Under the pieces are notes generated by a model. It saw only the letters and a program-made list of their open reading frames with translations. It was not told the origin of the DNA and made no database searches. Source: Elusimicrobiota bacterium (GTDB lineage: Bacteria; Elusimicrobiota; Elusimicrobia; FEN-1173). From it: 64,000 nucleotides of DNA. A program made the translations under genes and the position numbers. The number at the start of each line of letters is the position of its first letter. Position 1 is the first letter of the stretch. This document shows positions 983 through 36,987 of this stretch, one piece after another. Where the stretch lies: the NCBI GenBank assembly GCA_016722575.1, contig JADKIY010000001.1, positions 704,810 to 768,809 on the forward strand, given 5' to 3'.

Positions 983-1215
983 CCCCAAGGGCGCGTTAAC
1001 CTCCCGAAATTATCATTAGGTTGTTCCTAAGATGTTTGCCGATTCCCCGGGAGGGACGCCTTGCACCGATTAATTGCCTCCGATTGCCAATGCGACGCCT
1101 GCCGCCAACGGCGCGTCGCCTATCTGTGGGTTCGCGGCGGCCGACGGGACCACCGGTCTCGGCCCCCCCACACCGAAACCTCGAAACGACCCCCCGAAAA
1201 AACCAAATTGCGCCA

Positions 1216-10200: not shown

Positions 10201-13200
10201 GCGGTGGCCCGCAAGCACGGGTGGGACGTCATGCGGAAATACGACGATCCCCAATCGGTGGTGGGCATCACCAACGGCGCCAACCTGAAGTGGTCGGCGG
10301 GGCTTTTTTGGGATTATTTGGACGAGGTGGGGCACGAAAACGCCGACCGCCTGCGGCCCACCGCGGAACAGGTCCGGGACGCCAAACGGCTGGCGAAGGA
10401 GCGATTTTTCACGGATTTGTTGGTCCATCCGCAGCATGTGGAAGAGCAATTCTACCGGCGGTTTCGATTCATTTTGAACGATCCGGCCAAACGGGGGGAG
10501 CCGACCCCCGCCGTGGACCCCGCCCTGTTGAGCCAGCCGACGGTGGGTTTTGTGGGACGGCTGGTGAATGAAAAATTCAACATGAACCGCGGCTGGACCA
10601 CCCGAAACATTGAAGAACTCGTCAAAGCCGGCTACAACGTCGTGTTGTTCGCTCCGATTCAGCAGAAAAGCGACCCCACCAGCCCCAGCGCCGCCATGGC
10701 CCGGACCCTGGAGGCCCTTTCCGGAAACTTGGATCGGGAGTGGCGGCCGGGACACGGCCGGCTGATTTACATCGATTCCCGGGATTCGGAACTGAAAAAA
10801 TCCGCCCTGGCCTCTTTGGATATCCTCGTCCTCGATTCGGACAAGGACACGGAAGCCAACGGGTACACGGAAGTCGCGGCCTCCGCCTCCGGGGCCCTCG
10901 TTCTGTCGCCGCCCTTTCACAACGGCGAAGGGTTGATTCGCGGCCAAGGAATGCCCATCGATTTCTCGCAACCCGGCCACGGAAACACCCTGATCCCCGA
11001 CAATCAAAAGCCGGAATCGTACGTGGCGGTCTTGAAGAAGGCCCTGGAGGTCTACCAACAGCGTCCCATGGATTTCGCCGCCCACCAGGCGACCTCGGTC
11101 CGTCTAAGCCGCGTGCTGGAAGCGCGTCTCACCGCGGCGGCTTCCCTGCGGGATTTCAACTTGAGCTACTCCCTCCCCCTGGGGGTCGCGACGGATCCGT
11201 TGTGGTTCGGCGGGGTGAGCGTGGCCGAAAATCAACCCGCGAACCTGGAAGCGTGGGTGCGCGTGCGCCCGGGCGTGGATGCCACCCACTTGGACGTCCG
11301 GGCCCGTCTGGGCGAAGTCCCCGCGGGCCCCGCCTGGGGCGGGGAATGGTCCAACGGCCGGGAAATCCGGCTGGAGCCGGCGGGCCCCGCGGTCACGGCC
11401 GCGGACGGTACCGTGGCCCTGCGTTTTGCGAAATCGGTGGAACTTCCCCGCGGCGCCTACGAATTCGTCGTGGAGTCCCGGGATCGCCGGGAACCCCGGT
11501 ATTGGGTCCTTCAGGACGGCATTCGCTGGGGGCAAAACAACCGTTTGCTGGTGGGAACCCCGGCCCCGACCGGCGCTCCCGCGGGTCTTCTGCCGCTTTG
11601 GCGGCCCGTCATTCAGAATTTCCGGTTTGCCGGCTGGTCCGACCGAACCACCGTCCGGGTCCTGGGCGTGGTCGAAGAACTTTTCCTGATGGGCGCGGTC
11701 ACGCTCCTGGGCCGGGTTTTGGAAATGACGTTGGGTCTTCCCAGCGGCGTGAGCTTGTTGCTTTCCGCCGGGACGGCGGTGGCTCTCTTCCCCCTGGGTC
11801 ACGTGGGCGGCGTTCACTTCTTTGAACCCAGCGGGCGCCTGAAACTTTATCAAGCCACGGCGCGGGATTTAACGAAGCTCACGATCCTGGGGGCCGGACT
11901 GCGCACCGTCCACCTCGGTTTGGCCCTGGGTCTGCCCTGGTTGCTCACGGCCCTGGCCGGCGCTCCGATTTTGGGCCCGCCGGGCGCGTGGATCGAATTG
12001 GCCGCGCAACTCCTGCCCTTTTTGGCCGTGCCCCTCCTCCACGGCCGCTACAACGCCAACCCGCCCCGGGGATGGCCGCTGGGGATCCTCTCCTTTCAGC
12101 ACGCTCTTCTGGCCATCCGCTGGGGCACGACGGTCTCGGCCGGATTCTTTGAGCGCTTCGTTCCCCGTCAAGGCGTGCCCGTGGGGGACGGGTACATTTC
12201 AAATCCTCGCCGGACGGCGCTCATCGACCGGACGGTCGCGGCCCTGGCCGGCATGGCCGACGCCCGACTCAACGGCCTCAACCCCCTTTCCCTTAAGGGA
12301 ATCCTCGACATTGTTTTGAAAAACGTGGAGCAACACGGCGTTCCGGGGGCGGACGCCCAGGCCGCCGCGCGGATCGACGGCGGGGATTTTCTGTTGGAAA
12401 TTCGAAACGAAACCATCGCCCCGTTGTCGCCGGAATTGAACGGTGAATTTTCCGTCGGCCGGAGCAACCCCCGCGTGGCGGTCGAAAACCGGTCCCCCGG
12501 AACGGGGTATGGCATCGGGGTGACCCGGTTGCCGGGTTTGGTCCGGGGCTTGTACGACGTCGGCGCCGCCGATTTCGCCGAGCGGGCCCGATGGTCCTGG
12601 ACCACGGACGCCGCGACCCGGGAAGTCGTTTTTCAATTGCGCGCCCCCCTTCCGCCCGCGCCCGCGGCGGGGAAAGCCCACGAATTTGTTTCGGAATGGG
12701 AAATTCCGGGCGCCGTTCCCGAAGCGCCGGCCCCGGTCCCGATCTGGGGGTTGGTCGGCCGTCGGTTCGTGGCCCTGACGGCCTCCGTGGCTCTCTTTAT
12801 GAGCGGATTGGTTTCGGATTCTTCTCGGGCCTGGTCCCATCCGGTTTCCCCGGCGACCCGCGAAGCGTCGGCCGTTCCCGCCGGCTCCGATCAACCGTCC
12901 GCCTTGCTTTCCGCGGGGGCGATGGTCGTTCCCCTGGCCTCCCGCCGTCGGCGCAACGATTTTTGGCATCAAGTCGAAGCCGGGAAACACCCGGGTTGGC
13001 GGCTTCTGCGCGTCCCGGGGGCGAACGGCGAAACCATCGAAGCCGCGGTGAAGGAATCCGGCCAGGGCCCCCTGGTGGTCTGGAATTACGGCGGCGGGGC
13101 GGGTCCCGTTTTGAATCGGCAAGCCGATTGGTTCGCCAACCGGCCCGGGGTGGTCGTTCGCCGGCGGGACGCCGACGCCCACGTCCTGGTGGGTCAAACC

Positions 13201-16200
13201 GCCGGGGACACCGTCACGGTTTTGGAACAAATTCGCTCCCGCGGCGGTCCGGATTGGTCGGACGGCGGCGCCCTCGTCGTGGGGCATTCCTTGGGCGCCC
13301 ACGTCGCCACCACCGTGGCTCTGCGCCTTCAAGCGATGTCGCCGGGGGCCGTGCGGGGGGTCGTTCTTCTCAATCCGCCGGTGCCCAATGGCCTTTGGTA
13401 TTCCATGTTGATCGGCTGGCTCTCCTTCTTGAAGGGCGTCAGCGAGACTTTGGATTCCTGGATGGAGGCCGCGCGCTTCTCCTCCGCCTCCCGTCGGTCC
13501 CTTCGCCAACAGGAATCCCAGTGGTGGGGCCATTTCATCGAAAACTGGATCCCCTCGGCGGACGACGCTCGAACGACGGCCGACGCCCCGCCGGCCGTCC
13601 CCTGGGCCCTCTTCAACGGGTGGGACCACTTGCTGTCCGAGTCCCGGGCCCTGGGGAATTATTTGGAGACGACGCTGGCGGAATGCTTGGCCGAACTTTC
13701 GCGACTGCCCGCTCCGTTGCTGGTGGTCGGATCCCCCCACGATCCCCTGTGGGGGGAATTCGCGGCTTTTTATCGCGCGCTCCACCTTCGCGAGGTCGGC
13801 GAATCCGACGTTCTTCCGGAAACGGCCGCCCGGGCGCCCGCCCGCTTGTACGTCGAATTGTCGAACGGCGGCCAGGACGTATTGGCGGAGCACTCGCCCC
13901 ACATGTCGGCCCGCGCCGATCGGCTCAACGCGATTCTGGAGTCCTTTGCCCGGGCGGCCGACGGCCGCGGCCGCGCGGTGGGAGCCATCGGCCACCGCGT
14001 GGAGTTGGATTCGATTCGCTGGGGTCCCGACGGCTCCCTGATTTTCGCCCTTCAGCGGCCCGGCGGCTTCCCCCGGGACCTGCCCATCCTCTCGGCGACG
14101 CCGACGCGTTTTTCCGTTAAAGAGTCGATCGGCCGCCTGCGCCTTCGGGGCGGGGACCGCGGGACCCGATCCTCCGCGGACCCCCTGCGGCCCTTGGCGG
14201 ATCTTTTGGACCAACGGAGAATGTCGGCGCCCGCGGTCTACCGATTCGAGGATTCCCCCTTTAACCTTCGGGGGCTGGCTTTCGCCGGCACGGGGCTTCA
14301 CAACGCCGCCCTGGCGATTCACCAGGACCTGGCCCAATCCCAAGCGATCCGCGATCTGGCCATCCTCCACGAATTCCTCGAATACCTCTCCGCCAAAGGC
14401 TTCCTGGTCTACCGCTACGCGGCCGAAGAAGGGCTTCTTCGGATGAGTTTGAAAGTCCCGGGGACCTGGAGCGACTTCCAACGCCGGTGGGAGATCGAAC
14501 TGCCGCCGGCCGCCGCCGCTCTGGCCGCCCGGGGGGCGGAACGGGCCCACTACTTCCACCGCGCCCTGACCGCGGCCGCCTTGAACGACCTGGATGGGGA
14601 ATTGACCCGGACCATCCGGGAATCGGTGCGCCGACGGTTGCGGGTGGTGTCCGCGGCGAACGTCGGCGGTCGGGATAGAACCCTTCAGCCCGTTGTTCGA
14701 CGCCTGCGCCGCAACATGGAATCCGAGCATTTCATACCGCTCCTGGCCGAGTGGCTCCTCCACACGGGGATCCCCCGGAAGGACGGGTCCTTCAATTTGT
14801 TGCGCATGGAATTCCGGGCCTTTCCCAGCGGCGTGGTGTTGGAACGGCACGGCACGCTGGAGGAGCTCGACCTGAAAAGCCGCGGTTTTCAAACCGTTCG
14901 GTCCCTCCGTTCCGGGGACGTGGTCGTCCTTCCCTATTTGTTGAGCCAATTGATCGACGGTTACCGCCAACGCGTGGCCGAAACCGGGAAAGAACCGGAC
15001 GACGTTCATCCCAACGCCCTGCTGATGGATTTCCTCACCGCTCTTCCCGCCGGGGTGGTGCTGGCCTCGGTGGAGATGCCCTCGACCCTCGGGCAGTGGG
15101 GCCTGGAGGGGGCGCCCCTCGAGGGCTGGCTTCGCAATCACGCGCTGTGGGACGTGCCGCTCTGGCGGTTCATCCACGACACGGGTTGGTTCGACAACGT
15201 CTTGCCCCGGGCCGTGCCCCTCGACGCCCTGGACGGCGACCGGTTGAATCTGGACAACGGGACGTTCCTCACGCTCCAGGTCAAGCGGGATTCCCGGCTT
15301 CCGTCCGGCGGCCGGGCGGCGACCGGCGCCGTGTTGTCGCTGGCGTCCCCGAAGGGCGGGGACGGCGCTTTGTCCTCCCTCCTGACGCGCCGCTGGACGG
15401 AAAACGTTCTTCGACGGTGGGGGTTCCAACCGTCCGATCGATCCGTTCGCCTCGTCGCCGCCCTGGGCGTGGCCTGGTGGTACGAATTTCCGCGGACCCT
15501 CGCGGCGACCCGATTGGCCGATTTCGTTTACGAACACCCGGGGCCCCGGTGGATTCGTGTCGCCGGTTTGGCGGCGGTTTACGCGACGATGGGGTGGGCC
15601 TTCCTGGAAACCCTTCAATTCATGACCGGTCAAGCGAACCTCGTGCGTTTCGTCGCGGCCACGGCGGCGGCCCTGTTGGCCAATCCCCTGGGTCATTTCG
15701 CGTGGAATCTCGTTTTCGTTTGGACGGGGTGGGAACTGACCCGCGGTTCCGCCGTCCCCGCCCTCCCCATCCGCGCGGCCGGCCGTTCCCGGAGCGGATG
15801 GCGGGTGAAAACGGATTTGAGCGAACTGGAATTCCGTAACCGGAACACCGCGCCCGAAACCTGGACGCCCATTCCCCTTAAAGCCGAAGACAACGGAAGC
15901 TCCGCCCTCCCCTTCCTTCGACGCCCCTACGAACTTTTCCCCCGGTCCCCCCGCCGGGAAGGACCCGACGCCCCGAGCACTTCGGAAGTGGCCTACCTCC
16001 GGGTCGTCAAGGCCCTGGAATCCCTCGGCGCCTTGACGCCTCGATTGCTTTCGTACGACCCCGCCGCCCGGTTCCAGACCCCGGGCAAATCGGAACTTTT
16101 CGGACTGCGGGCGTTCTCCCATTGGATGCAAAAAAGCGACGGGGACTTGGTGGGCACGCCCGAGGGGTTGTCCTTCGTCGTCCTTCCCGCCGAGCTCTTT

Positions 16201-19200
16201 TCGGACCCCGCCGTCGCCCCGGCCGATCGCCGGGAGTATCTCGGAACGGCCGTCCTGATCGAGGCCATAAAAATTTTGCGTCTGGCCGGTCGCCTGACCC
16301 TGACCCTGGAGCGGGACGAACGGGGACCTTGGTTGTTGCTCTCGGTAACGAACGCCCAGGGGCGGGTGGAAACTTCGCGCTTCCTGGTGTACGGCGAGGT
16401 GGCCCGCATCCTAAGCCACCACCGGGATTTCCACCATTTGGCGCGGGCCCTCGTCGCCTATTGGATCCCGACCGCCGAAAAACGATTGAACGATTTTCTG
16501 GTGGCCCGGGACCTTCGCGGCTACGTGGAGATTTCGCCGGCGGCCGCGACCGCCGCCGCCCGCCCGCCGGCCCCGTGGGGCCGGGTCGCGGCGGCGCTTT
16601 TGGTCGGCGCGGCTCTGTCCTTCGGTCTGCCCGGAACGGATTTCATTTCCACGGCCGCCGCGGCGACCTGGACCCCCGCTTCCCCCGTCCGGTGGTTGGA
16701 TCCGTCCTTCGTGGCGACCGCCCTGACCTTGATTTTGCTCGCCGCGGCGGCGACGGTGGAGCCGCTTCGGGCCGGACTCCGCCGGTGGCCGGACCGCCTG
16801 GCGGCCGCCAAGGATTCGATTTTGATGATGGCCACGAGCCGCGGTCCCCCGGGCGGCCGCGGTCGCGGCGGGAATGGAAAACTCGGCGGAGAAGGCCCCC
16901 GCGTACCGGCCCGTGAAAAGGCCGAATTGCTTTTCAAGTTCAATGGGAAAATCGCCCTGGCGCGGAACGCCGGGGATTTTGAAACCCTCCGGGAAATATC
17001 GAATTGGGTGAAAGGCCTATCGCTTCGCCACGATCCCGACCTGGAGGCCGCCGTCCAACGATTGATCGCCGTCCACGACAGCCGCCGGGATTATCACTGG
17101 CGGCGGATGATCGGCAACGAAGAGCCCGCCGCGACGATCCAAGACGAATTGAAGTCCCTTTTGTTGAGTCGCCTGGGTTGGTCGCCCTCCCGACCGGCCC
17201 CCGCCGAAACGGAACGCCGGGCGACCGTTCTGTCGGCGGAAATTTTCAGCCGCGATCCTCGCAACAGCCGGGAATTGGATCAATGGATCGGCGAGGCCGT
17301 AAGATCATTGAGTCGGGACCTCCCCGCCAACGGCGGTTTGGAGCCGGCGATCCCCGTCGTTCCTTCCCCGTGGACGGGCGTGGCCACCGAAATAAAATCC
17401 GCGTCGGGCGAATTGCTGGCCACCATCCAAAAGGACGAGAACCGAAACGGATGGGTTCGGTTCTACGATGCGTCGGGTCGTCTTCGCCGGATGGAAAGCC
17501 GGGATCCGGCCCGTCCCGTCGTGGTTGTGAGGGAAGTCGGCCCCGGGGGCCGGCTCGACACCGTGATCGGCGGGCCGCGCTCGGCGGGGGGCGCTCCCCT
17601 GTCCCCCGTGTCCTTGGAGACGGACCGGTTGATCGAGGCCTTGGCGAATTACCACCGGTGGATCGCGGACTACGCGTCCTCCTTGCGGCGTCAAGGGGTT
17701 TCCGTGGAAGAAGCGACCGAGGCCGTGGAGTCCGCCCTTCGCGCGGGTCGCTACCGTTTGGCCGAACTGGTCGTGCGGAGCTGGCTGGACCTCCCGGGCA
17801 TGTACCGCCGGGCGGTGAACGGCGAAGAATCCTACCCGAACGAATTTCAAAGCCCACGGTTTCAGGGGACTTTTGCCGATTTTGTCAGAACGGTCGGGGA
17901 ACGGGGGGCGGTCCACGGCCTGAACAGCGCCACCTTGAAGGAGAATTCGGACGGCTCCCATTATTTTGTCCACGAGTTGATGCCGTTTACCTTGCTGGAA
18001 AACAGCATCAATTATCACTTTGCGAACATGCGCAATGACCTCAGCCCGGCGGGGGAAAACGAGCGGCCCGTCATCCTCTTCTTCGACATTGAGAAGTTGC
18101 CGCCCTTGTCCATGAAAAACCCGCTGGAAGTCAAATTCCGCGAAATGGTGGAAGCGCCCTTGGTCGCCCTGCGGCCCGAGAGTCGGCGGGTCGCGGAATC
18201 CCTCGTTGGCCCCCTCGAAGGATCGGGGGCGACGGCCGACGTTCGCCGGGCGCTGGACGACGCCGCCGGGTGGGCGCCGACTCCGGGGGCGGGACGAGCC
18301 CAACGGGGATACTCCCTGCCAATCGTTTTGGTGGGTTTATCGTTGGGGACTTTGGTGGCCCTTTCCGTGATTCCGTGGATTGGAATTTTCCCGTCTCTGG
18401 CGGCGGGCCTCCTCTCCGCGATCGCCGTTGCCTTGGCGGCGGAGAATTTGTTGATCCTCCCCGGCATCCGGTACGGACCTTCCCGGGCCGCTTTCGAGAC
18501 CCTGCGCCGGGCGGTGGCGGCGACCCAAACCATTCCCGAGGACGACCGGGCCCTGGCCGACCTTAAGAAATCGTTTACGGAGTTTAAGGCCGCGATGAAG
18601 GAATCGGCGGGCGGGATGCCCGACGCCTCCTCCTACCGCGCCTTCATGTGGGCGTTTTCCGACGGTTTGGACGCCGTGGTTCGGGAAGTGTTCCGGCGCG
18701 CGGCCCGGAAGCACCGCCTCTTGAACCGCACGGCCCTGATGGCCCACGGCAGTTACGGGTCCCGTCGGCCGGGCCTGATATCGGACGTCGATTTGCACCT
18801 TCTGCTTCCGAACGACTTGGCCTACCCGGCCCCGGACAACGAGACGGGCGCCGCCGCCGAGGCCCTGTATTACGGATTGGAAAAAGTCCTGAGCGCCCAG
18901 GACCCCAAGCCGCTGAAGGATTATCAGCACGCCGGCGACGTTGAGCGCGCCATGGCCTTTTGGGAACCCAGGTCCCATGAGATGGGGAGTCTCTACACGG
19001 GCGTGGACGCTCTGCGGGTCTACGGGTTGAACGCGCGCCCGGTGGCCGGCAACGCCCGGTTGTTCGAGGAGGGCGTCCGGCCGGGCTACCGGCGCCTGCT
19101 TTCCCGAAATCGGCGCGAAATCCTGCGCGGGGTGATCTTGGAGAGGGAGGCCCAATTTGAAAGGGCCGATTCCAGCTTGCTGCGCCCGGATTTCAAGGCC

Positions 19201-21474
19201 GGACTCGGGGGGGTCCGAGAATACGACGCCATCACTTGGATGAGCCGGTTCCTCTTTCCCCGGGGGGCCGAGGGGTTGGTCGGCCTTCTGTCGGGCTGGG
19301 CCGTTCTGGCGATTCAGCGTCGGGTGTCGCTCGGGCAACTGCTCCGGGCGCGGCAAGCGTTCCTTCGTCAAGCGCGCCTTCGGGACCGGCGCGTTGAATT
19401 CGAATCATTGACTCGCCCGGAGAAAATCCAATACGTCCAGGACGCCAGCCTCTTGTTCGACACGTTGGTGTCCCTTCAGCAGTCCTTCTGGCTCGAGGTG
19501 CGCCGACCCGAGGACCCGGAATATTTGCCCTTCTTTTTGGCCAGCGCGGGCTGGCGTCCGCCTTCGGCCACGACCGTCCAAGGGGCATTGGACGACGCGC
19601 TTTCGAAACGACAAGGCGGGGTGGTGGCCGTCGGGGCGCGGCGTTCCGGGGCCGACGGCATGGCCGAATTCTCCATCGAAGTCCTTCGGGACCGGCCCGG
19701 CGTTTTGGCCGTGCTTTCGGGCCTCATGGCGTCCCAGGGATTCAGCATCCGAGCGGCCGAGGCCCGATTTGAGCGGGGCCGGATCTTTGACCGGTTTTAC
19801 GTCCATCTCGGTTCCCTCGCCGCGGCGGACAAGAAAGTCCAGGACCGGGAAATCGCCCGTCTGGGTCAAACCGTGGAAAACGCGGCCGCCGATGTTTTGA
19901 GGGGCGAGCGGATCGACCTGGGGCGCGTGGCGGGGGAGTTCCGGGCCGCCGGCCGGGATTACCGCTTCGTCTTGCCGCGCAGTCGGCCGGTGGTCAAAAC
20001 CCTGGCTTACTTCTCCGGAGCGGCGGAGGCCCGGTCGCTCACGGTTTTAACCTCGGACCGGGTGCTGGGCGACGATGCGGGGGAGAAAGAATATCTCGGA
20101 ACCCTGCACGTCATCACCCGGTGGCTGGCGGAAAGGGGCCTCAACATCGTCGGGGATCCCAGCATCCGCACCCAGCGGGGCATCGTGATGGACACCTTCG
20201 GCCTGCGTCATTCGGACGGATCGTCCTTGACGGCCGCGGACGAGTCGACGGTGGAGGCGGTTCTCCAGCAATTCCTGGACCTCCCTGAAATCAGCGAAAG
20301 CGATTTCGGCCGGGACTCCGCGCTTCCCCCGATCCACGGCTCGGGGGAAGCCCCGGCGGGAATTCCGCTTCTTGGGGGGATGCCGAAGGCGACGCTCTTC
20401 GGGTGGAGCGCGCCCCTGTTGGCCGGGTTCCTCCCCGGCGGCCCCGCGTTCTTGCTCGTGGGGGGTATGGTTTTCTTGGCCGTTCACTGGTTCCAAAGCC
20501 GGGCCAAGACACGGGCGGAGAAGCCGGCGCCCGCGACGTCGCCCGTGGGGACGAGGCTTCTTTCCCGGGACCTGCTGAAGAGCGCTCTTTTGGGCGGTCC
20601 CGTCGGCCAAGTCATTGATTTCTCGCGGTACGACCTGGACGCGGCGTCCCTGCGCGCCGACGCCCTGGCCGGCCGCGCGGCGGCCCGGGACCGGCGGGAA
20701 CAGTTGGCCCGGGATTTGGGTTTGGAGCACGGCGCGTCCCTGGACGACATCGGTTATCGCCTGGGCCAACGGCACCGCGCGGGCCGGACGCCGTTGTCGC
20801 GGACGGAAGACCCCACCGCGCGGTTCGCCGACGAAATCGGCCTCTTGGCCCTCCTTTCCGACGGGTGGACCCGCGCCGGCGACCTGCCCGCCGACGCGTC
20901 TTCCGCCCTCGCCCAATACCACCGGGGCCAGGGACTCCTCGGCCTGCCCGCGCGCGTGACCGAGGCCTTGGCCGACGGCCGCCGTTTGGCCTTTGAAATT
21001 CCCACCGATCTGTTGCGTGGAAGAATCGCCGGGGAGCGGGACGCTTCGCTGGTCCGGGCTCTGGCCCTCGCGGCCGCGGCGTCCCCCGAGAACGAACGCT
21101 TGTCCTGGATCCTCCCCGCGGGAGTCGGTCGGGCGGAGCTGGACCGGTTCTTCGCCGAACGGCCCGAATTGGCCGCGCTTCAATCCCGGGGGAACGTGGT
21201 GGCGAAAGACAGCGCCCGCCTGGACGCCGCCGTCGGGCCCGCCTATTCCGTAAAGAGGCTGCTTCTGGAAGTCCAGGGCGTCAAAGACGAGTCCCGCTTG
21301 GCGGCCACGGACCTTTTCCTCTTGAACCGGGGCGAATGGAAGCTGGACTTGAGCGACGGCGCCAAGGGCTTGGTCAAGCTCTTGATCCTCTTGGCCGGCG
21401 ACGTGGTCTTCGACGCCACCGACCGCCTCGCCGACGACGTGAAGCGCCTGAACGTCGTTTCCACCAACGCCTAG
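1216..21474 (+). CDS. Giant multidomain secreted/membrane protein (about 6,750 aa). Domains in order: signal peptide, paralog-shared N-module, HD, GHKL-like, TM helices, GT5 glycogen-synthase-like, GT35-like glucan phosphorylase, alpha/beta-hydrolase, GlnD/GlnE-type nucleotidyltransferase, two ACT domains
   Basis: Single uninterrupted ORF with high GC3 throughout and a TAG stop at 21472-21474. The track start at TTG 1021 is unlikely because 1021-1215 is rich in A-ending codons. ATG 1216 and ATG 1237 (the latter with GGTGGAG upstream) are candidate starts; both give an Arg-rich then hydrophobic signal-like N-terminus. Recognisable motifs include HDIGK, KRGGLGD, AHDWQAA, RFEPSGLTE, WAGGLGPV, GHSLGAH and GSYGSRRPGLISDVDLHLLLP, plus two DRPG-type ACT signatures. 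Confidence 0.8.
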   Translation: MVEQPFPMRINGRSFSTALRRGARPVLGGALAAVYFLVNVPGVYAVESSFWSDRRERAGRRRSPDNPTLLAQLPSGARAPLGDAVLPPVAGRLSEESLGGAARLPAKTPASPALQRAFGWLPAVVAPYGDVRDVYLSPRPGAPTIIHLQDAHEIAEAQRNLAGLTTALKSARGLSLVGLEGAVGAFALDPYRRYPNADITRALADTFLGLGYLTGPEAAAVTGDKPPLLWGVEDAGLYRDNISAFENSERTRARVQALAAKLSAAADEARDRYYSPALRALDDHRRAYHERKEGLAAYAAYLWGLRKGSRTEFENTRLLREALQWEERLDFVQVENERRALVEGLSRRLPEDALAGLVRESLDYRAGRLSYGDYHRYLRRLCADHGLGLERYPQLSAYVSYVLLAERIDRDGLLQELVALEKSAESALAVSPEEKALVSVRRGLTLLDKLTTHGLTPAEWQSYLVERPRLLALPKTLSTLVPGRIAGADALTPETLDSFERFCSRALDRNGALIKNLLEKMRAEGASAAVLVAGGFHTAGLAQLCRQQGLSYAVVSPRLAKVPAETRPLDVFARSPLPLEKILAGDVIHLAYPRLGQAAGEGLAAQGAAAARQQTAQILWASFQEFLGGLATNFSEGDRDRFAEFARQFTAVSDLSADVLELGGGIRALAVRVTVSNGDKKELALLSAPDGRENVYDRFGAEPAFAGRVELPSGPLALRVYALSDVSGPGLIGRVVWWGDRTRGYWSAHARSLIQQLNFRLAGLSAPKKAVVETELSLEEAHGRAIAEVSARLGLRTRELEPIAHHMVRVRDLADHLARSLGTNAEDIALLRLAASAHDIGKFHEDCVEHVITPDIFPKDSPAFRALAEHEQLVFDVLGRQKLVLSAEVAMILRAHSALGAGAKESLDAVPGLTERHVRLALILSLADVSDGYRDMHRPYIQALVQKSGFPTLDQLRREFLKYAAKAAGSSYAGALPDAESVFARAAAEPWFAAATERTLIEHVAGLVEAATAGDPDAEKARRLSREISSHRIPALATPPDRWWSALVESLFVRGATGDQRAAVLESLLTTLQTETAAGRIDGGLGLAGLTAGLLPAGRSRPAAAREILLAREWTSEKALAKDIDATAQAVRELAAQYPAVAPAALSSLTSYALGETEGHGAWDGSPARLELSRRGNTLRLRIENDGGYPLPNRAPKNIRNRSFTPATAEPLIYSSRGVESGSGAGTAYIAVYFHQIYQAGLPDQLTSRARLAWTQRALGENRYRIALTVHLPLTSAATIRGGAIPAVAAFWEPKFVSLLGERWGRYFYRAVAGPTLEDLFGGLRNAESINSALLFPLLVGFLMNLGGDPVLGAFVPAFILFFNRLLFVARHPEGQRTEAGFVAALGGAGAFAVAWMGAFSPVAVALGFLAGWSFHVATNAVFNLPVLFQGKSKEPSAPAAPARTKIGLVLLMMGTLFLSPMYRGGGSALIDAAADRWAGLGIAAIGLLMLATSGNPFANAKRGIDRILTSSFAQGLSRRWTGLVRWIGRNKSPLLAAGFAAALGSLFGPSNPELMIAAAAATGTPLVRRSERRDLNIASVSVELAPPHGEVNRQIRGLMAFGHSILRRNAAGGWSAENHRGALSLTTRDGEDLSRDGVLNDFEIHLVGDGAFRYLHVWPWGAQEGHGGGLSTVGTLNPVKRVFIARGLWESDRERALTVLKHEATEVNLWWEHSLKLGDEKQIVSVDRKAEALAAVAAFRGRPRKKADALVAADAKLPTIREWIRANALGAVVALTNRFHNMANRRYRTEHPMDFIPLPNTLSGSVAMVSWEHRDFFKRGGLGDAISEASFNLAKLGQDVDLYMPMHKEMENKVPWVDTHLTVPVATAGERVVFHLFRTEIDVPTPGAGRLTVYALKDVTPRSGDTERWRLFQYGYNPPNDLRYYDYPLKESALGAKAVVEAMKLVSGDRRGRVRYRAVNAHDWQAALVPVLMKGDASFAGVGRILTVHNGAYMGNFRLKNDDGTDSYNQEFLRGLGLPAGYDRFGPGDPIEFHGQIVLQKAALLAAHKINPVSPQYRNELLSPDDYVLPGNTRDMAGVYRARQADLVGVMNGLDDDIWNPERDPAIADAPYAYTPFVARDVREKKPANKSNFQKALGLTVDRDAPMLYTCARLSEQKGFDFVADAMEGLLTEFPKAQFVLMGDSDNSEMGNDLARRFTDFMTRYPGRVWFGPFGGRGGWEHYMGAAADFVLSPSRFEPSGLTEKKGMRLGAVPIVRAVGGLQDTVVDPREDADNANGFKFIEPTGAAFGEAARRALRAYEAGHGQRLGDEPNIDLLQQNAMRTPKSWEDVAREYLGLYSAARDAAHDESTAEVAARRHAVPPAAPLIGHLPAGVDLGAIRLERGDEVRGALADLEEWMATVVSGPPPTLAGSRRGETIPQTLDMLRQELGALSSDADAGLFDADAFQRESAGRVLGFGFAETKTATGRARLGLSDEFFNPDSVLYPHRREALFHEAYHVVLGVADNSTIHRDALRIQAALFWGVPVEEAYALSLEQLEAHPKNALGRALRVRRLLRDFRGEDVNGLADLLGEKLENGQLIPFLTEADDALNAPLALSPTALERRTWERVDLMRRLEGQPPRGRGDLDPRFLEARRAEEDWSKPLIESGPVEAPQPLLKAIALLTTEQEDRLLNELSAAVAQDSALADRPIVDDIFLMTGRIPKGWAKLHGIAYQRVYHLSAEGRKVWAGGLGPVQVFHSDAERQITRDSAFDVVDIEPDYTHRRTAEGMVPAERARPSTPLKPSLEPPFDLEVKFQGRPVKIRVRPMRGPEGNPVYLFRDNPDGDAHFTKQLYDYRPSGDNPASWEEFTAFFGVATLAVIGRLEENRSKALGAQWRPPVLHGNDAQTAMAIVLLAEIVRGGNPRSEELVQSVPFLAKLAPLAARTFKTHTYGNRQGYTWGRPEDHYGVASYLSGIPEWDHQRLNFYFARRGPEAHGYPDVTAAAIAATPGHAQAVARKHGWDVMRKYDDPQSVVGITNGANLKWSAGLFWDYLDEVGHENADRLRPTAEQVRDAKRLAKERFFTDLLVHPQHVEEQFYRRFRFILNDPAKRGEPTPAVDPALLSQPTVGFVGRLVNEKFNMNRGWTTRNIEELVKAGYNVVLFAPIQQKSDPTSPSAAMARTLEALSGNLDREWRPGHGRLIYIDSRDSELKKSALASLDILVLDSDKDTEANGYTEVAASASGALVLSPPFHNGEGLIRGQGMPIDFSQPGHGNTLIPDNQKPESYVAVLKKALEVYQQRPMDFAAHQATSVRLSRVLEARLTAAASLRDFNLSYSLPLGVATDPLWFGGVSVAENQPANLEAWVRVRPGVDATHLDVRARLGEVPAGPAWGGEWSNGREIRLEPAGPAVTAADGTVALRFAKSVELPRGAYEFVVESRDRREPRYWVLQDGIRWGQNNRLLVGTPAPTGAPAGLLPLWRPVIQNFRFAGWSDRTTVRVLGVVEELFLMGAVTLLGRVLEMTLGLPSGVSLLLSAGTAVALFPLGHVGGVHFFEPSGRLKLYQATARDLTKLTILGAGLRTVHLGLALGLPWLLTALAGAPILGPPGAWIELAAQLLPFLAVPLLHGRYNANPPRGWPLGILSFQHALLAIRWGTTVSAGFFERFVPRQGVPVGDGYISNPRRTALIDRTVAALAGMADARLNGLNPLSLKGILDIVLKNVEQHGVPGADAQAAARIDGGDFLLEIRNETIAPLSPELNGEFSVGRSNPRVAVENRSPGTGYGIGVTRLPGLVRGLYDVGAADFAERARWSWTTDAATREVVFQLRAPLPPAPAAGKAHEFVSEWEIPGAVPEAPAPVPIWGLVGRRFVALTASVALFMSGLVSDSSRAWSHPVSPATREASAVPAGSDQPSALLSAGAMVVPLASRRRRNDFWHQVEAGKHPGWRLLRVPGANGETIEAAVKESGQGPLVVWNYGGGAGPVLNRQADWFANRPGVVVRRRDADAHVLVGQTAGDTVTVLEQIRSRGGPDWSDGGALVVGHSLGAHVATTVALRLQAMSPGAVRGVVLLNPPVPNGLWYSMLIGWLSFLKGVSETLDSWMEAARFSSASRRSLRQQESQWWGHFIENWIPSADDARTTADAPPAVPWALFNGWDHLLSESRALGNYLETTLAECLAELSRLPAPLLVVGSPHDPLWGEFAAFYRALHLREVGESDVLPETAARAPARLYVELSNGGQDVLAEHSPHMSARADRLNAILESFARAADGRGRAVGAIGHRVELDSIRWGPDGSLIFALQRPGGFPRDLPILSATPTRFSVKESIGRLRLRGGDRGTRSSADPLRPLADLLDQRRMSAPAVYRFEDSPFNLRGLAFAGTGLHNAALAIHQDLAQSQAIRDLAILHEFLEYLSAKGFLVYRYAAEEGLLRMSLKVPGTWSDFQRRWEIELPPAAAALAARGAERAHYFHRALTAAALNDLDGELTRTIRESVRRRLRVVSAANVGGRDRTLQPVVRRLRRNMESEHFIPLLAEWLLHTGIPRKDGSFNLLRMEFRAFPSGVVLERHGTLEELDLKSRGFQTVRSLRSGDVVVLPYLLSQLIDGYRQRVAETGKEPDDVHPNALLMDFLTALPAGVVLASVEMPSTLGQWGLEGAPLEGWLRNHALWDVPLWRFIHDTGWFDNVLPRAVPLDALDGDRLNLDNGTFLTLQVKRDSRLPSGGRAATGAVLSLASPKGGDGALSSLLTRRWTENVLRRWGFQPSDRSVRLVAALGVAWWYEFPRTLAATRLADFVYEHPGPRWIRVAGLAAVYATMGWAFLETLQFMTGQANLVRFVAATAAALLANPLGHFAWNLVFVWTGWELTRGSAVPALPIRAAGRSRSGWRVKTDLSELEFRNRNTAPETWTPIPLKAEDNGSSALPFLRRPYELFPRSPRREGPDAPSTSEVAYLRVVKALESLGALTPRLLSYDPAARFQTPGKSELFGLRAFSHWMQKSDGDLVGTPEGLSFVVLPAELFSDPAVAPADRREYLGTAVLIEAIKILRLAGRLTLTLERDERGPWLLLSVTNAQGRVETSRFLVYGEVARILSHHRDFHHLARALVAYWIPTAEKRLNDFLVARDLRGYVEISPAAATAAARPPAPWGRVAAALLVGAALSFGLPGTDFISTAAAATWTPASPVRWLDPSFVATALTLILLAAAATVEPLRAGLRRWPDRLAAAKDSILMMATSRGPPGGRGRGGNGKLGGEGPRVPAREKAELLFKFNGKIALARNAGDFETLREISNWVKGLSLRHDPDLEAAVQRLIAVHDSRRDYHWRRMIGNEEPAATIQDELKSLLLSRLGWSPSRPAPAETERRATVLSAEIFSRDPRNSRELDQWIGEAVRSLSRDLPANGGLEPAIPVVPSPWTGVATEIKSASGELLATIQKDENRNGWVRFYDASGRLRRMESRDPARPVVVVREVGPGGRLDTVIGGPRSAGGAPLSPVSLETDRLIEALANYHRWIADYASSLRRQGVSVEEATEAVESALRAGRYRLAELVVRSWLDLPGMYRRAVNGEESYPNEFQSPRFQGTFADFVRTVGERGAVHGLNSATLKENSDGSHYFVHELMPFTLLENSINYHFANMRNDLSPAGENERPVILFFDIEKLPPLSMKNPLEVKFREMVEAPLVALRPESRRVAESLVGPLEGSGATADVRRALDDAAGWAPTPGAGRAQRGYSLPIVLVGLSLGTLVALSVIPWIGIFPSLAAGLLSAIAVALAAENLLILPGIRYGPSRAAFETLRRAVAATQTIPEDDRALADLKKSFTEFKAAMKESAGGMPDASSYRAFMWAFSDGLDAVVREVFRRAARKHRLLNRTALMAHGSYGSRRPGLISDVDLHLLLPNDLAYPAPDNETGAAAEALYYGLEKVLSAQDPKPLKDYQHAGDVERAMAFWEPRSHEMGSLYTGVDALRVYGLNARPVAGNARLFEEGVRPGYRRLLSRNRREILRGVILEREAQFERADSSLLRPDFKAGLGGVREYDAITWMSRFLFPRGAEGLVGLLSGWAVLAIQRRVSLGQLLRARQAFLRQARLRDRRVEFESLTRPEKIQYVQDASLLFDTLVSLQQSFWLEVRRPEDPEYLPFFLASAGWRPPSATTVQGALDDALSKRQGGVVAVGARRSGADGMAEFSIEVLRDRPGVLAVLSGLMASQGFSIRAAEARFERGRIFDRFYVHLGSLAAADKKVQDREIARLGQTVENAAADVLRGERIDLGRVAGEFRAAGRDYRFVLPRSRPVVKTLAYFSGAAEARSLTVLTSDRVLGDDAGEKEYLGTLHVITRWLAERGLNIVGDPSIRTQRGIVMDTFGLRHSDGSSLTAADESTVEAVLQQFLDLPEISESDFGRDSALPPIHGSGEAPAGIPLLGGMPKATLFGWSAPLLAGFLPGGPAFLLVGGMVFLAVHWFQSRAKTRAEKPAPATSPVGTRLLSRDLLKSALLGGPVGQVIDFSRYDLDAASLRADALAGRAAARDRREQLARDLGLEHGASLDDIGYRLGQRHRAGRTPLSRTEDPTARFADEIGLLALLSDGWTRAGDLPADASSALAQYHRGQGLLGLPARVTEALADGRRLAFEIPTDLLRGRIAGERDASLVRALALAAAASPENERLSWILPAGVGRAELDRFFAERPELAALQSRGNVVAKDSARLDAAVGPAYSVKRLLLEVQGVKDESRLAATDLFLLNRGEWKLDLSDGAKGLVKLLILLAGDVVFDATDRLADDVKRLNVVSTNA

Positions 21475-22679: not shown

Positions 22680-23065
22680 AACGAATTTCAAGTCTGCTTC
22701 TTCTATTGTCGGCGGCCGTGCCCGCCTGGGCCGACGGTCGTCCCGCCGGCGCGCCCAACGGGGGACTCATGATGATGGTCCCTTGGATCGCGATCCTGGG
22801 CGTCTTTTATTTCCTTCTGATCCGTCCCCAGCAAAAACAGGCCAAACAGCACCAGGCGCTCTTGGACAATTTGAAGCGCGGCGACCGCGTTCTCACCCAG
22901 GGCGGAATTTACGCCACCATCCAGTCCGTCAAAGGGAAAGTCCTGGAAGTGAAGTTGTCCGAAGACGTCAAGGTCCTTCTGTCGCGCAGCCACGTGGCCC
23001 AAGTGGTCCCCAACGACCCGGCCCAGGAAACCGAAACGACCGCCACCAACGGCGCCCATGCCTAA
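22676..23065 (+). CDS. yajC: Preprotein translocase subunit YajC
   Basis: YajC core (FLLIRPQQKQAKQHQALLDNLKRGDRVLTQGGIYATI). GTG start overlaps the tgt stop (GTGA). Confidence 0.85.
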   Translation: MKRISSLLLLLSAAVPAWADGRPAGAPNGGLMMMVPWIAILGVFYFLLIRPQQKQAKQHQALLDNLKRGDRVLTQGGIYATIQSVKGKVLEVKLSEDVKVLLSRSHVAQVVPNDPAQETETTATNGAHA

Positions 23066-32865: not shown

Positions 32866-32870
32866 TCCCC

Positions 32871-35778: not shown

Positions 35779-35819
35779 GACGGCGCCAATGAACCCGTCG
35801 GCCCCGAATGATATGATCC

Positions 35820-36971: not shown

Positions 36972-36987
36972 ACAACGGAGTACGCCC

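What the first reader, a model, noticed from the sequence alone, without database searches (positions are those of the whole stretch)
18600..20250. GlnD/GlnE-type nucleotidyltransferase followed by two ACT domains near the C-terminus, with an HD motif about 15 kb upstream in the same ORF
ALMAHGSYGSRRPGLISDVDLHLLLP is the GS-x9-DxD signature of the GlnD/GlnE polymerase-beta-type nucleotidyltransferases. It is followed by two ACT modules (DRPGVLAVLSGLMASQGFSIRAAEA...FDRFYV, then LHVITRWLAERGLNIVGDPSIRTQRGIVMDTFGL). This is the same domain order as the PII uridylyltransferase GlnD, whose HD domain corresponds here to the HDIGK-containing segment at about nt 3610-3900. The arrangement suggests that the enzymatic core of the giant protein is under amino-acid or nitrogen-metabolite-sensing control, or that it (de)nucleotidylylates a partner.
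Basis: partly seen in the sequence, partly recalled or inferred. Interest (0 to 1): 0.7.

Follow-up and report, generated by a model that had tools for sequence, protein, structure and literature searches.

The report
HD-less GlnD-like cassette in giant protein
Near the end of a roughly 6,800-residue membrane protein of an Elusimicrobiota bacterium lies a diverged copy of the nitrogen-sensor enzyme GlnD that keeps the nucleotide-transferring domain and both amino-acid-sensing ACT domains but has lost the HD 'eraser' domain, a new arrangement of known parts whose target is unknown.

Summary

The roughly 370-residue HD region of GlnD is missing from the cassette. The HD domain 5,000 residues upstream is a generic, HD-GYP-like domain (3.9 bits against a GlnD profile), so it is neither in GlnD order nor GlnD-like.

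The cassette sits between membrane hairpins and is probably cytoplasmic. It is one of the few blocks conserved in orthologous giant genes, which also lie between queA and tgt. The ACT pair belongs to a frame shared by a small family of giant proteins: N-terminal domain, variable enzyme cargo, ACT pair, C-terminal domain.

The likely function is inferred, not shown: a ligand-gated protein nucleotidylyltransferase or sensor. I rate it a new variant of a known kind, of moderate interest.

The parts
1021..21474 (+). Giant ORF of 6817 codons including the stop. The real start is probably the ATG at nt 1216 or 1237.
   Evidence: The coding signature is uniform. Colinear orthologous giant genes occur in L002, L003, L004 and L005. 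Orthologs align from aa 89, and P0183 starts about 14 residues before that.
18316..18441 (+). Membrane hairpin in front of the cassette: two hydrophobic helices (aa 5766-5784 and 5789-5807) joined by the 4-residue loop PWIG.
   Evidence: Kyte-Doolittle scan. K/R residues are on both outer flanks and none in the loop. The hairpin is included in the block conserved with L002/L003.
18538..19512 (+). GlnD-type nucleotidyltransferase domain plus helical (PF08335) domain, aa 5840-6164, equivalent to E. coli GlnD 28-324.
18748..18795 (+). Catalytic signature GSYGSRRPGLISDVDL (G5910, S5911, D5922, D5924). It aligns with E. coli GlnD GGYGRGELHPLSDVDL.
   Evidence: The motif is conserved in L002, L003, P0002, P0005, P0004 and P0008.
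18901..18903 (+). Asp5961 (in SAQDP), the candidate third metal-binding carboxylate. It shares a column with the Asp of the GlnD 'LWD' motif.
   Evidence: MAFFT alignment (position). Asp is present in every cassette sequence that reaches this column (P0005 ends before it) and in 5 of 6 GlnDs shown. The GlnD 'GHSVRT' motif that follows is not conserved.
19138..19398 (+). Pfam PF08335 (GlnD_UR_UTase) match, aa 6040-6126. It contains KAGLGGVREYD (nt 19195-19227), the counterpart of GlnD K-x-x-x-GG-L-R-D.
   Evidence: (25.8 bits, gathering cut-off 21).
19621..19902 (+). ACT1, aa ~6201-6294, with the D-R-P-G-V-L loop at nt 19690-19713 and F-D-R-F-Y-V.
   Evidence: hhalign to E. coli GlnD 694-888, 99.9%, E 2.5e-33. 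NCBIfam TIGR01693 positions 665-849. Weak Pfam ACT, 19.5 bits. D410, G413, L415 and G420 (cassette numbering; giant aa = number + 5814) are invariant or nearly invariant in the family.
19975..20289 (+). ACT2, aa ~6319-6423. Its ligand loop (SDR...GTLHVITRWLAERG) carries an insertion of about 9-11 residues (VLGDDAGEKEY, about nt 20062-20094).
   Evidence: The long insertion is present in the window, P0001, L002 and L003. It is absent from P0004, P0007, P0008 and P0122 and is only one residue long in P0006.
20359..20484 (+). Hydrophobic stretch after the cassette (aa ~6447-6488), probably a second membrane hairpin, followed by the basic stretch HWFQSRAKTRAEK.
20806..21471 (+). C-terminal domain, aa ~6596-6817, of unknown function. 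It is part of the frame shared by the giant-protein family.
   Evidence: BLAST matches to L002/L003 (35-37% identity), to P0007 and P0122, and to the C-terminus of the upstream paralog in L005. There is no Pfam hit.
3625..4002 (+). HD domain, aa 869-994 (HDIGK at nt 3727-3741). It is not the GlnD HD. I list it because the finding invoked it.
   Evidence: Pfam HD 27.8-30.7 bits. Best solved relative is the HD-GYP phosphodiesterase 4mcw, E 3.4e-5. The GlnD profile gives 3.9 bits over the HD signature only. The region is conserved in orthologs L004 and L005.
6634..8241 (+). Glycogen/starch-synthase-like (GT5, GlgA-type) module, aa 1872-2407.
   Evidence: Pfam Glyco_transf_5, E 1.2e-36. NCBIfam TIGR02095 glgA, E 3e-84, 283 bits, below the 328-bit cut-off.
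9574..9912 (+). Second, weak GT5-like match (aa 2852-2964). It lies inside the most conserved block of the protein, aa 2433-3433.
   Evidence: Pfam Glyco_transf_5, 24.9 bits against a cut-off of 22.7. The block is 64-68% identical to L004 and L005. No PDB sequence match.
1237..3000 (+). N-terminal family domain, aa 73-660, of unknown function. Together with the ACT pair and the C-terminal domain it defines the giant-protein family.
   Evidence: BLAST to P0007 (42% identity), P0122 (38%), P0008 and P0033 (25-26%). Homologs P0183-P0186. No Pfam hit.

Best explanation
Giant-protein aa ~5840-6423 is a GlnD-derived cassette: nucleotidyltransferase, helical domain, ACT1 and ACT2. It has lost the central HD (uridylyl-removing) region of GlnD. 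It is held at the membrane between two hydrophobic hairpins, near the C-terminus of a multi-module giant protein of an Elusimicrobiota bacterium.

Shown:
- Homology to GlnD over both halves.
- Absence of the HD region from the cassette.
- Retention of the three catalytic carboxylates and the glycine-rich loop.
- A GlnE/DrrA-type fold for the N-terminal half.
- Conservation of the cassette in orthologous giant genes.

Inferred:
- The cassette faces the cytoplasm.
- The NT domain is an active protein nucleotidylyltransferase. It would transfer UMP or AMP from an NTP to a hydroxyl, most likely a tyrosine. This is the chemistry of its characterised relatives GlnD, GlnE and DrrA.
- The ACT pair binds a small metabolite, by analogy glutamine or another amino acid, and gates that activity and/or neighbouring modules.
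- With no HD in the cassette, modification would be one-way. Alternatively it is reversed by another activity.
- The substrate is unknown. It could be a site in the giant protein itself (for example near the two glycogen-synthase-like modules) or a soluble partner.
For: Homology:
- Pfam PF08335 scores above its gathering cut-off.
- NCBIfam GlnD models reach E 5e-12 with colinear N-terminal, middle and C-terminal stretches.
- The exhaustive profile search gives 418 hits. After about 10 giant-protein relatives and fragments, most are 800-950-aa proteins with 3-4 colinear stretches. One was checked and is a canonical GlnD.
- hhalign gives 98.6% and 99.9% to E. coli GlnD 28-324 and 694-888.
- The GlnD HMM hits only this region of the 6,817-aa protein significantly.

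Fold:
- Foldseek gives the same three as top hits.
- The family profile hits the GlnE sequence in the PDB at E 2.7e-4.

Catalytic residues:
- G-S...S-D-V-D is conserved down to 25-30% identity, in P0004 and P0008. Asp5961 and K-x-G-x-GG-x-R-[DE] are kept in the window clade and P0004. P0008 keeps the Asp but has A-E in place of R-[DE].

ACT hallmarks:
- The D-R-P-G-x-L loop and the D-x-F strand are present in both ACTs. The corresponding residues are noted as conserved in GlnD/ACR-type ACT domains in PMC11190351.

Selection:
- The cassette is one of only about five blocks alignable between the window protein and its L002/L003 orthologs (45-47% identity). Flanking housekeeping proteins are 75-78% identical, and most of the giant protein is unalignable.

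Topology:
- K/R residues lie on both outer flanks of the preceding hairpin and after the following hydrophobic stretch.

Precedent:
- GlnD-type ACT domains are fused to glucan-metabolising enzymes (Chlamydomonas alpha-amylase AMA2, activated by glutamine; starch phosphorylase STA4; PMC11190351).
Against: - There is no biochemical evidence of any kind.
- The GlnD 'GHSVRT' motif after the third Asp is not conserved.
- Three family members (P0007, P0033, P0122) keep the helical-plus-ACT-ACT part but have no detectable NT motif. The ACT pair, not the transferase, is therefore the universally conserved element.
- Pfam ACT and NTP_transf_2 do not reach their cut-offs.
- The ACT half of the structure model is of low confidence (pLDDT below 50). 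The modelled N-terminal half used an alignment containing GlnD and GlnE sequences, so the fold match is not independent of the sequence homology.
- ACT2 has an insertion in its ligand loop.
- Topology comes from a hydropathy scan and the positive-inside rule only.
- No PII gene lies in the window, and I could not inspect the rest of the genome.
Confidence: 0.55

Rival explanations
1. Sensor or assembly cassette only. The functional unit is the helical-plus-ACT-ACT part, acting as a ligand-binding or dimerisation switch for the giant protein. The NT domain is a vestige that no longer transfers nucleotides.
For: - P0007, P0033, P0122 and P0006 match only profile positions ~255-596, the helical end plus the ACT pair.
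- No NT motif or NT-profile hit is found in P0007, P0033 or P0122.
- In the 10-sequence family alignment, the only invariant or nearly invariant columns lie from W343 (cassette numbering; giant aa = number + 5814) onwards. Only six of the ten rows include the NT region.
- ACT pairs related to this one also occur fused to Kef-type antiporters, that is, as a portable regulatory unit (P0163, P0170).
- The GHSVRT motif is lost.
Against: - Wherever the NT domain is present (window clade, P0004, P0008), the G-S...D-x-D signature and the third Asp are all retained, despite only 25-50% overall identity.
- Such retention is not expected of a decaying domain.
- The NT domain models with high confidence as a complete GlnE/DrrA-type fold.
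Confidence: 0.25
2. Bona fide PII uridylyltransferase. The cassette is this organism's GlnD, fused into the giant protein. It modifies a soluble PII protein in response to glutamine, and removal is done by the upstream HD domain or another enzyme.
For: - GlnD proteins are the closest characterised relatives by sequence over both halves.
- PII is the only known GlnD substrate (PMC4285133).
- One family member, P0008, carries a genuinely GlnD-like HD elsewhere in the same polypeptide. Split arrangements of GlnD parts therefore exist in this family.
Against: - Scores are far below the GlnD equivalog cut-offs (44.8 against 519 bits).
- Identity to GlnDs is 17-22%.
- The HD is absent from the cassette, and the upstream HD is HD-GYP-like, not GlnD-like.
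- glnD is typical of Proteobacteria and Actinobacteria and only sporadic elsewhere (PMC4285133).
- No PII, amtB or glnA gene lies in the 64-kb window.
- The cassette is membrane-tethered inside a family of giant proteins whose other modules concern glycans, not nitrogen.
Confidence: 0.12
3. Artefact: a chance motif in a spurious long ORF of a GC-rich genome, or an assembly chimera.
For: - GC-rich DNA gives many long spurious ORFs (130 ORFs of 150 aa or more in this window).
- The first structure model was poor.
Against: - The coding signature is uniform over 20 kb.
- Colinear orthologous giant genes occur in four independent assemblies with the same queA/tgt/secD neighbours.
- Profile E-values reach 1e-33.
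- The motif is expected 0.08 times per shuffled protein.
Confidence: 0.01

Closest known systems
[quoted passage not shown]
   Same: - An N-terminal pol-beta-type nucleotidyltransferase with G-[GS]...D-x-D and a third Asp.
- The adjoining PF08335 helical domain with K-x-x-x-GG-x-R-[DE].
- Two C-terminal ACT domains with D-R-P-G loops.
- The parts are colinear with E. coli GlnD 28-324 and 694-888.
   Different: - The roughly 370-residue central region with the HD (uridylyl-removing) domain is missing.
- The GHSVRT motif is not conserved.
- Identity is 17-22% and scores are an order of magnitude below the equivalog cut-offs.
- ACT2 has a loop insertion.
- The cassette is not a free ~100-kDa cytoplasmic enzyme but a membrane-tethered part of a 6.8-kaa protein.
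- The host phylum (Elusimicrobiota) lies outside the usual GlnD range.
- The substrate is unknown.
GlnE (glutamine synthetase adenylyltransferase; PDB 1v4a, 3k7d) and the Legionella DrrA/SidM AMPylation domain (PDB 6yx5, 3nku)
   Different: - GlnE has two tandem NT units and no ACT domains.
- DrrA has GEF and P4M domains.
- Sequence similarity to GlnE is weaker than to GlnD (E 4e-7 or worse against 1e-14; no GlnE model hit).
GlnD-type ACT domains fused to other enzymes: plant ACR proteins, Chlamydomonas alpha-amylase AMA2, starch phosphorylase STA4 (PMC11190351) and Kef-type antiporters (P0163, P0170)
   Same: A GlnD-like ACT unit is used as a portable metabolite sensor. In AMA2 it couples glutamine to glucan metabolism. 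That is the kind of coupling conceivable here, given the two GT5 modules in the same polypeptide.
   Different: Those proteins lack the nucleotidyltransferase. Here the ACT pair is still attached to its NT domain and lies thousands of residues from the glycosyltransferase modules. Any functional coupling is speculative.
Giant multi-pass membrane proteins of Omnitrophota and related phyla ('Archaeovorins'; West-Roberts et al. 2023, bioRxiv 10.1101/2023.11.21.568195)
   Same: A very long ORF with numerous transmembrane regions and GT5 glycogen-synthase-like modules, mostly unannotatable sequence, and occurrence in Elusimicrobia noted.
   Different: - This protein (6.8 kaa) is much smaller than the proteins of over 30 kaa emphasised there.
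- No HEAT, TPR, SecA_DEAD or dockerin hits were found.
- That paper's text mentions no GlnD, ACT or nucleotidyltransferase module.
- I did not test homology to Archaeovorins.

Membership tests
GlnD (PII uridylyltransferase/uridylyl-removing enzyme) | N-terminal pol-beta-type nucleotidyltransferase domain with G-G/S...D-x-D (UTase active site) | tested here: met
   GSYGSRRPGLISDVDL aligns to E. coli GlnD GGYGRGELHPLSDVDL. GlnD HMM positions 7-110 match at E 5e-15.
GlnD (PII uridylyltransferase/uridylyl-removing enzyme) | PF08335 GlnD_UR_UTase helical domain following the NT domain | tested here: met
   25.8 bits against a gathering cut-off of 21, E 1.2e-5. GlnD HMM positions 142-224 match at E 6e-16.
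GlnD (PII uridylyltransferase/uridylyl-removing enzyme) | HD (uridylyl-removing) domain between the NT and ACT domains | tested here: not met
   GlnD 325-693 has no counterpart. The cassette has about 40 residues there. The only HD in the protein is 5,000 residues upstream, scores 3.9 bits against the GlnD profile and is nearest to an HD-GYP enzyme.
GlnD (PII uridylyltransferase/uridylyl-removing enzyme) | Two C-terminal ACT domains | tested here: met
   hhalign to E. coli GlnD 694-888, 99.9%, E 2.5e-33. NCBIfam TIGR01693 positions 665-849. The generic Pfam ACT model is below its cut-off (19.5 against 27 bits).
GlnD (PII uridylyltransferase/uridylyl-removing enzyme) | Full-length score above the curated equivalog cut-off | tested here: not met
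   TIGR01693 gives 44.8 bits against a cut-off of 519.4. The other GlnD models give 10-44 bits against cut-offs of 631-1299.
GlnD (PII uridylyltransferase/uridylyl-removing enzyme) | Uridylylates or adenylylates PII Tyr51 and is regulated by glutamine | not testable with these tools
   This needs biochemistry and the full genome. No PII gene lies in the window.
GlnE (glutamine synthetase adenylyltransferase) | Two tandem NT units (PF03710 plus PF08335, twice), about 950 aa, no ACT domains | tested here: not met
   There is a single NT unit. No GlnE model hit at E<=1 in NCBIfam and no PF03710 hit. GlnE proteins are only weak profile hits (E 4e-7 to 8e-4). The fold is shared.
ACT domain (PF01842 superfamily) | A beta-alpha-beta-beta-alpha-beta unit with a ligand loop (D/N-x-P-G) between beta1 and alpha1 | tested here: inconclusive
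   The sequence motifs are present in both units, and the predicted secondary structure is partly compatible. However, Pfam is below its cut-off and the model of this half has pLDDT below 50. Homology to the GlnD ACT pair is nevertheless secure.
Archaeovorin-type giant proteins (West-Roberts et al. 2023) | Very large size (tens of kaa), numerous transmembrane regions, extracellular HEAT/TPR repeats, GT5/GT1 modules, often a divergent SecA_DEAD domain | tested here: inconclusive
   Transmembrane clusters and GT5 modules are present. HEAT, TPR and SecA_DEAD are not detected. The size is 6.8 kaa. I made no direct sequence comparison with Archaeovorins.

The most novel reading that the evidence does not exclude
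A PII-independent branch of GlnD-type signalling. In a family of membrane-anchored giant 'enzyme-string' proteins of Elusimicrobiota, an HD-less GlnD cassette senses an amino acid, perhaps glutamine, through its ACT pair. It then nucleotidylylates the giant protein itself, or a partner other than PII. This would couple nitrogen status to the glycogen-synthase-like and other cargo modules carried on the same polypeptide. It would give GlnD-family enzymes a second substrate class and give these giant proteins their first mechanistic handle.
Probability: 0.15. Interest if true: 0.75.

Novelty: new variant of a known kind. Interest (0 to 1): 0.5.

Why it matters
GlnD is regarded as a stand-alone, four-domain enzyme with PII as its only known substrate. 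It occurs mainly in Proteobacteria and Actinobacteria (PMC4285133).

This locus shows that the NT-ACT-ACT part of GlnD can exist without the HD domain. It does so as a membrane-tethered cassette inside giant multi-enzyme proteins of a different phylum, where it is conserved while most of the protein diverges beyond recognition.

For the poorly understood giant proteins of Elusimicrobiota and Omnitrophota, this is a recognisable signalling element that can be tested experimentally. It also helps define a conserved frame: N-terminal domain, variable cargo, ACT pair, C-terminal domain. If the cassette is active, its substrate would reveal either a new target class for GlnD-type enzymes or how such giant proteins are regulated.

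Tried and rejected
- Single-sequence phmmer of the cassette against PDB sequences found nothing meaningful.
- The first AlphaFold run, with a 3-sequence alignment, was unusable (pLDDT 44.6). It was replaced by a 26-sequence alignment, whose ACT half is still poor.
- The scan of GTDB species-representative genomes for the cassette found no relative. The source genome and its close relatives are evidently not among those representatives, or the back-translated patterns missed them.
- The afdb50 fold library was unavailable.
- Self-BLAST and chunked BLAST of the giant protein found no internal repeats. The two GT5-like modules are therefore not recent duplicates.
- My first test for NT domains in P0007, P0033 and P0122 was circular, because the HMM contained those sequences. 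I repeated it with an HMM built from NT-bearing members only, and the result was negative.
- I tested the idea that the upstream HD is the displaced GlnD HD and rejected it.
- A PDB sequence search of the most conserved block (aa 2433-3540) found nothing.
- Zhang et al. 2010 (PMC2876476), the primary paper on GlnD domains, is not held. I used Merrick 2015 instead.
- Literature searches found no description of a GlnD-like module in giant proteins.
- tRNA scan of the window: none found.
Full report
**1. What is there**

The window holds a single 6,817-codon ORF (nt 1021-21474, + strand). Its composition is uniformly coding: GC3 is 0.76-0.85 in every 900-nt block.
- The G-S...D-V-D signature is at aa 5905-5930 (nt 18733-18810).
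- The two ACT-like stretches are at nt 19690-19803 and nt 20104-20205.
- HDIGK is at nt 3727-3741, 15.0 kb upstream.

The gene lies between queA (nt 7-951) and tgt/secD (from nt ~21534), in an ordinary chromosomal neighbourhood. That neighbourhood includes lipid A/LPS-core genes, pyrG, a type II secretion ATPase, mdh, glycolate oxidase and polA. There are no tRNA genes and no PII, glnA or amtB genes.

**2. Is it a GlnD-type module?**

Yes. The evidence is as follows.
- Pfam PF08335 (GlnD_UR_UTase) passes its gathering cut-off (25.8 against 21 bits).
- Five NCBIfam GlnD models hit at E 5e-12 to 9e-6. Their best-matching stretches fall in the N-terminal, middle or C-terminal part of the models.
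- I built a profile of the module and its two close relatives and searched it exhaustively against 1.84 billion representative proteins. It returned 418 hits. First come about ten giant proteins or fragments. Most of the rest are 800-950 residues long and match in 3-4 colinear stretches.
- The first of those, P0009, is a canonical GlnD by Pfam (PF08335, HD and ACT). Named hits of a second search are annotated [protein-PII] uridylyltransferase, with GlnE weaker.
- Profile-profile alignment places module residues 26-350 on E. coli GlnD 28-324 (98.6%, E 8.6e-16). It places residues 387-609 on GlnD 694-888, the ACT1-ACT2 pair (99.9%, E 2.5e-33).
- A GlnD HMM run without filters against the whole giant protein gives significant domains only at aa 5842-5952, 6002-6082 and 6200-6419.

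One caveat applies. The GlnD alignment was assembled from hits of the module profile, which may inflate these values somewhat. The independent curated Pfam and NCBIfam models agree with it.

**3. Fold**

With a 26-sequence alignment, AlphaFold gives a usable model of the N-terminal half (pLDDT mostly 70-95) and a poor one of the ACT half (below 50).
- Foldseek gives the same three as top hits.
- The family profile also hits the GlnE sequence in the PDB (E 2.7e-4).
- No GlnD chain appeared among the matches of any PDB search.

These relatives are protein-tyrosine nucleotidylyltransferases. For GlnD this is stated in PMC4285133. For GlnE and DrrA it rests on my own knowledge.

**4. Active-site and ligand-site residues**

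- GSYGSRRPGLISDVDL aligns with E. coli GGYGRGELHPLSDVDL.
- An Asp (D5961 in SAQDP) shares the column of the GlnD 'LWD' aspartate.
- KAGLGGVREYD matches GlnD K-x-x-x-GG-L-R-D.
- The G-S...S-D-V-D signature and the third Asp are kept in every family member that has an NT domain and reaches those columns, down to 25-30% identity (L002, L003, P0002, P0004, P0008; P0005 ends before the Asp column). P0008 departs from the K-x-G-x-GG-x-R-[DE] motif (GGIAEW in place of GGVRE[YW]D).
- The GlnD 'GHSVRT' motif is not kept.
- Both ACT units carry the D-R-(P-G) loop and the D-x-F strand. ACT2 of the window clade has an insertion of about 9-11 residues in that loop. P0004, P0007, P0008 and P0122 lack it, and P0006 has only one extra residue there.

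**5. What is missing, and the HD question**

GlnD is NT-HD-ACT-ACT. The HD domain provides uridylyl removal (PMC4285133). The cassette has about 40 residues where E. coli GlnD has residues 325-693.

The HD at aa 869-994 is a real HD domain (Pfam 27.8-30.7 bits). However:
- It lies 5,000 residues N-terminal of the NT domain.
- It scores only 3.9 bits against the GlnD profile, over the generic HD signature.
- Its best solved relative is an HD-GYP phosphodiesterase (4mcw, E 3.4e-5).

One distant family member, P0008, does have a GlnD-type HD (GlnD HMM positions 349-546, E 8e-18). It lies about 550 residues downstream of that protein's own NT-ACT-ACT unit.

**6. Context in the protein**

Detectable modules:
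- An N-terminal domain of unknown function (aa 73-660).
- The HD domain.
- A GlgA-like GT5 glycogen/starch synthase (aa 1872-2407; Pfam E 1e-36, NCBIfam glgA E 3e-84).
- A second weak GT5-like match (aa 2852-2964).
- A weak alpha/beta-hydrolase signature around GHSLGA (aa ~4062-4158, below the Pfam cut-off).
- The GlnD-like cassette.
- A C-terminal domain (aa ~6596-6817).

Hydrophobic helices occur mostly as closely spaced pairs. The cassette is bracketed by one such hairpin (aa 5766-5807, loop PWIG) and by a hydrophobic stretch at aa ~6447-6488. Basic residues lie on the cassette-proximal and distal flanks and not in the loop. By the positive-inside rule the cassette is cytoplasmic, which an NTP- and amino-acid-dependent module requires. 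This is an inference from a crude scan, not a topology prediction.

**7. Relatives and conservation**

The closest relatives are an Elusimicrobiota MAG fragment (P0001, 83% identity) and a JGI fragment (P0002, 49%). Four independent assemblies carry colinear orthologous giant genes in the same neighbourhood.
- L002 and L003 have giant gene-tgt-secD. The neighbouring proteins are 75-78% identical.
- L004 has ruvCAB-spoIID-queA followed by genes of 968 and 8,202 aa.
- L005 is from an Elusimicrobia bacterium MAG (GCA_016721625.1). It has genes of 391 and 5,670 aa, preceded by a paralogous giant gene with a CofD module.

Between the window protein and L002/L003 only about five blocks align, and the cassette with its hairpin is one of them (45-47% identity). 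The cassette is therefore under constraint in a fast-evolving protein.

More distant proteins show a family frame (P0007 3,493 aa; P0122 1,917 aa; P0008 2,842 aa; P0033 3,843 aa).
- They share the N-terminal domain and the helical-plus-ACT-ACT unit. P0007 and P0122 also share the C-terminal domain.
- They carry different cargo in between: CofD, DUF4922, and in P0008 a GlnD-type HD detected with the GlnD profile.
- P0004 (4,392 aa) shares only the cassette with the window protein.
- The NT domain is detectable only in the window clade, P0004 and P0008.

The near relative P0003 is 73% identical through ACT2 and then diverges completely. This suggests that module boundaries are shuffling points.

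**8. Mechanism**

Shown: homology, architecture, residue conservation, fold of the NT half and conservation among orthologs.

Inferred, in decreasing order of confidence:
- (a) The cassette is cytoplasmic and membrane-tethered.
- (b) The ACT pair binds a small metabolite, by analogy with GlnD glutamine. [quoted passage not shown] GlnD-type ACT domains confer glutamine activation on a Chlamydomonas alpha-amylase (PMC11190351).
- (c) The NT domain transfers UMP or AMP to a protein hydroxyl.
- (d) With no HD in the cassette, the mark is one-way or is removed elsewhere.
- (e) The target is part of the giant protein or a partner.

The main rival is that the ACT pair is the working part and the NT domain is dispensable, given the NT-less relatives. 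A second rival is that this is simply the organism's PII-modifying GlnD. Neither can be excluded without the rest of the genome and biochemistry.

**9. Novelty and score**

Giant multi-pass proteins with GT5 modules are described for Omnitrophota and noted for Elusimicrobia (West-Roberts et al. 2023). The paper texts I searched mention no GlnD, ACT or nucleotidyltransferase module. My other literature searches found no HD-less GlnD cassette in such proteins.

All the parts are known. The architecture (GlnD minus HD, membrane-tethered inside a giant protein, outside the usual GlnD phyla) is new. I rate it a new variant of a known kind, with interest 0.5. It would be a real surprise for nitrogen-signalling specialists and a useful handle on giant proteins. 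However, function and target are entirely inferred.

Noticed in passing
window 1021-21474 (whole giant ORF); also P0007, P0008, P0033, P0122: The giant protein belongs to a small family with a shared frame: N-terminal domain (aa 73-660), variable enzyme cargo, helical-plus-ACT-ACT unit, membrane segment, C-terminal domain (aa ~6596-6817). Cargo differs between members: two GT5 modules, HD and alpha/beta-hydrolase here; CofD in P0007; DUF4922 in P0033.
   Followed up: partly
window 8317-11319 (aa 2433-3433): This is the most conserved block of the giant protein, 64-68% identical to orthologs L004 and L005, against 45% or less elsewhere. It has only a weak GT5 Pfam hit and no PDB sequence match. 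It may be the functional core of the protein.
   Followed up: partly
P0008 aa 2161-2373 (representative-library protein, 2842 aa): This distant family member carries a genuinely GlnD-type HD domain (GlnD HMM 349-546, E 8e-18) about 550 residues downstream of its own NT-ACT-ACT unit. A possible further ACT lies near its C-terminus. It looks like a 'split GlnD' arrangement.
   Followed up: partly
window 3625-4002 (aa 869-994): The HD domain is nearest to HD-GYP cyclic-di-GMP phosphodiesterases (4mcw, E 3.4e-5). It keeps an 'ADVSDGYRDMHRPY' stretch, which to my recollection resembles the HD-GYP A-D-x-x-D-A...R-P-Y motif. Read by eye, it lacks a clear HHE...GYP motif. It is conserved in L004 and L005.
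   Followed up: partly
L005 1529-9532 and 10001-21176; L004 128-1753 (minus strand): Related genomes carry additional paralogous giant genes next to the orthologous one. L005 has a tandem paralog with a CofD module and the same C-terminal domain. L004 has a 2,390-aa protein on the opposite strand with the same N-terminal domain. In L004 and L005 the ortholog is split into two ORFs (968+8202 aa and 391+5670 aa), possibly by frameshifts or sequencing errors.
   Followed up: no
P0003 (557 aa) compared with window 19783-20319: A close relative is 73% identical through ACT2 and then becomes unrelated immediately after the cassette, continuing into TPR-like sequence. This suggests recombination or shuffling at module boundaries within giant genes.
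   Followed up: no
window 7-951, 21534-22679, 23058-24497: The giant gene is wedged between queA and tgt-secD, genes that are commonly adjacent in bacteria. The same placement is seen in L002-L005. The tgt ORF as listed (21336..) overlaps the giant gene's end, but homology starts at ORF residue 67 (~nt 21534).
   Followed up: partly
P0163, P0170 (hits): ACT pairs related to this one are fused to Kef-type cation:proton antiporters (PF00999). This is another case of the GlnD-like ACT pair serving as a portable regulator of membrane proteins.
   Followed up: no
P0154 (764 aa, JGI, 35.6-kb contig): This protein is annotated [protein-PII] uridylyltransferase. Its precomputed Pfam hits are PF08335 and ACT but no HD. 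It may be a stand-alone HD-less GlnD relative and an evolutionary intermediate.
   Followed up: no
window 26868-39296: A run of lipid A/LPS-core genes lies on the + strand: Kdo transferase, heptosyltransferase (GT9), several GT4 and GT2 glycosyltransferases, lipid A acyltransferase and an O-antigen ligase-like Wzy_C protein.
   Followed up: no
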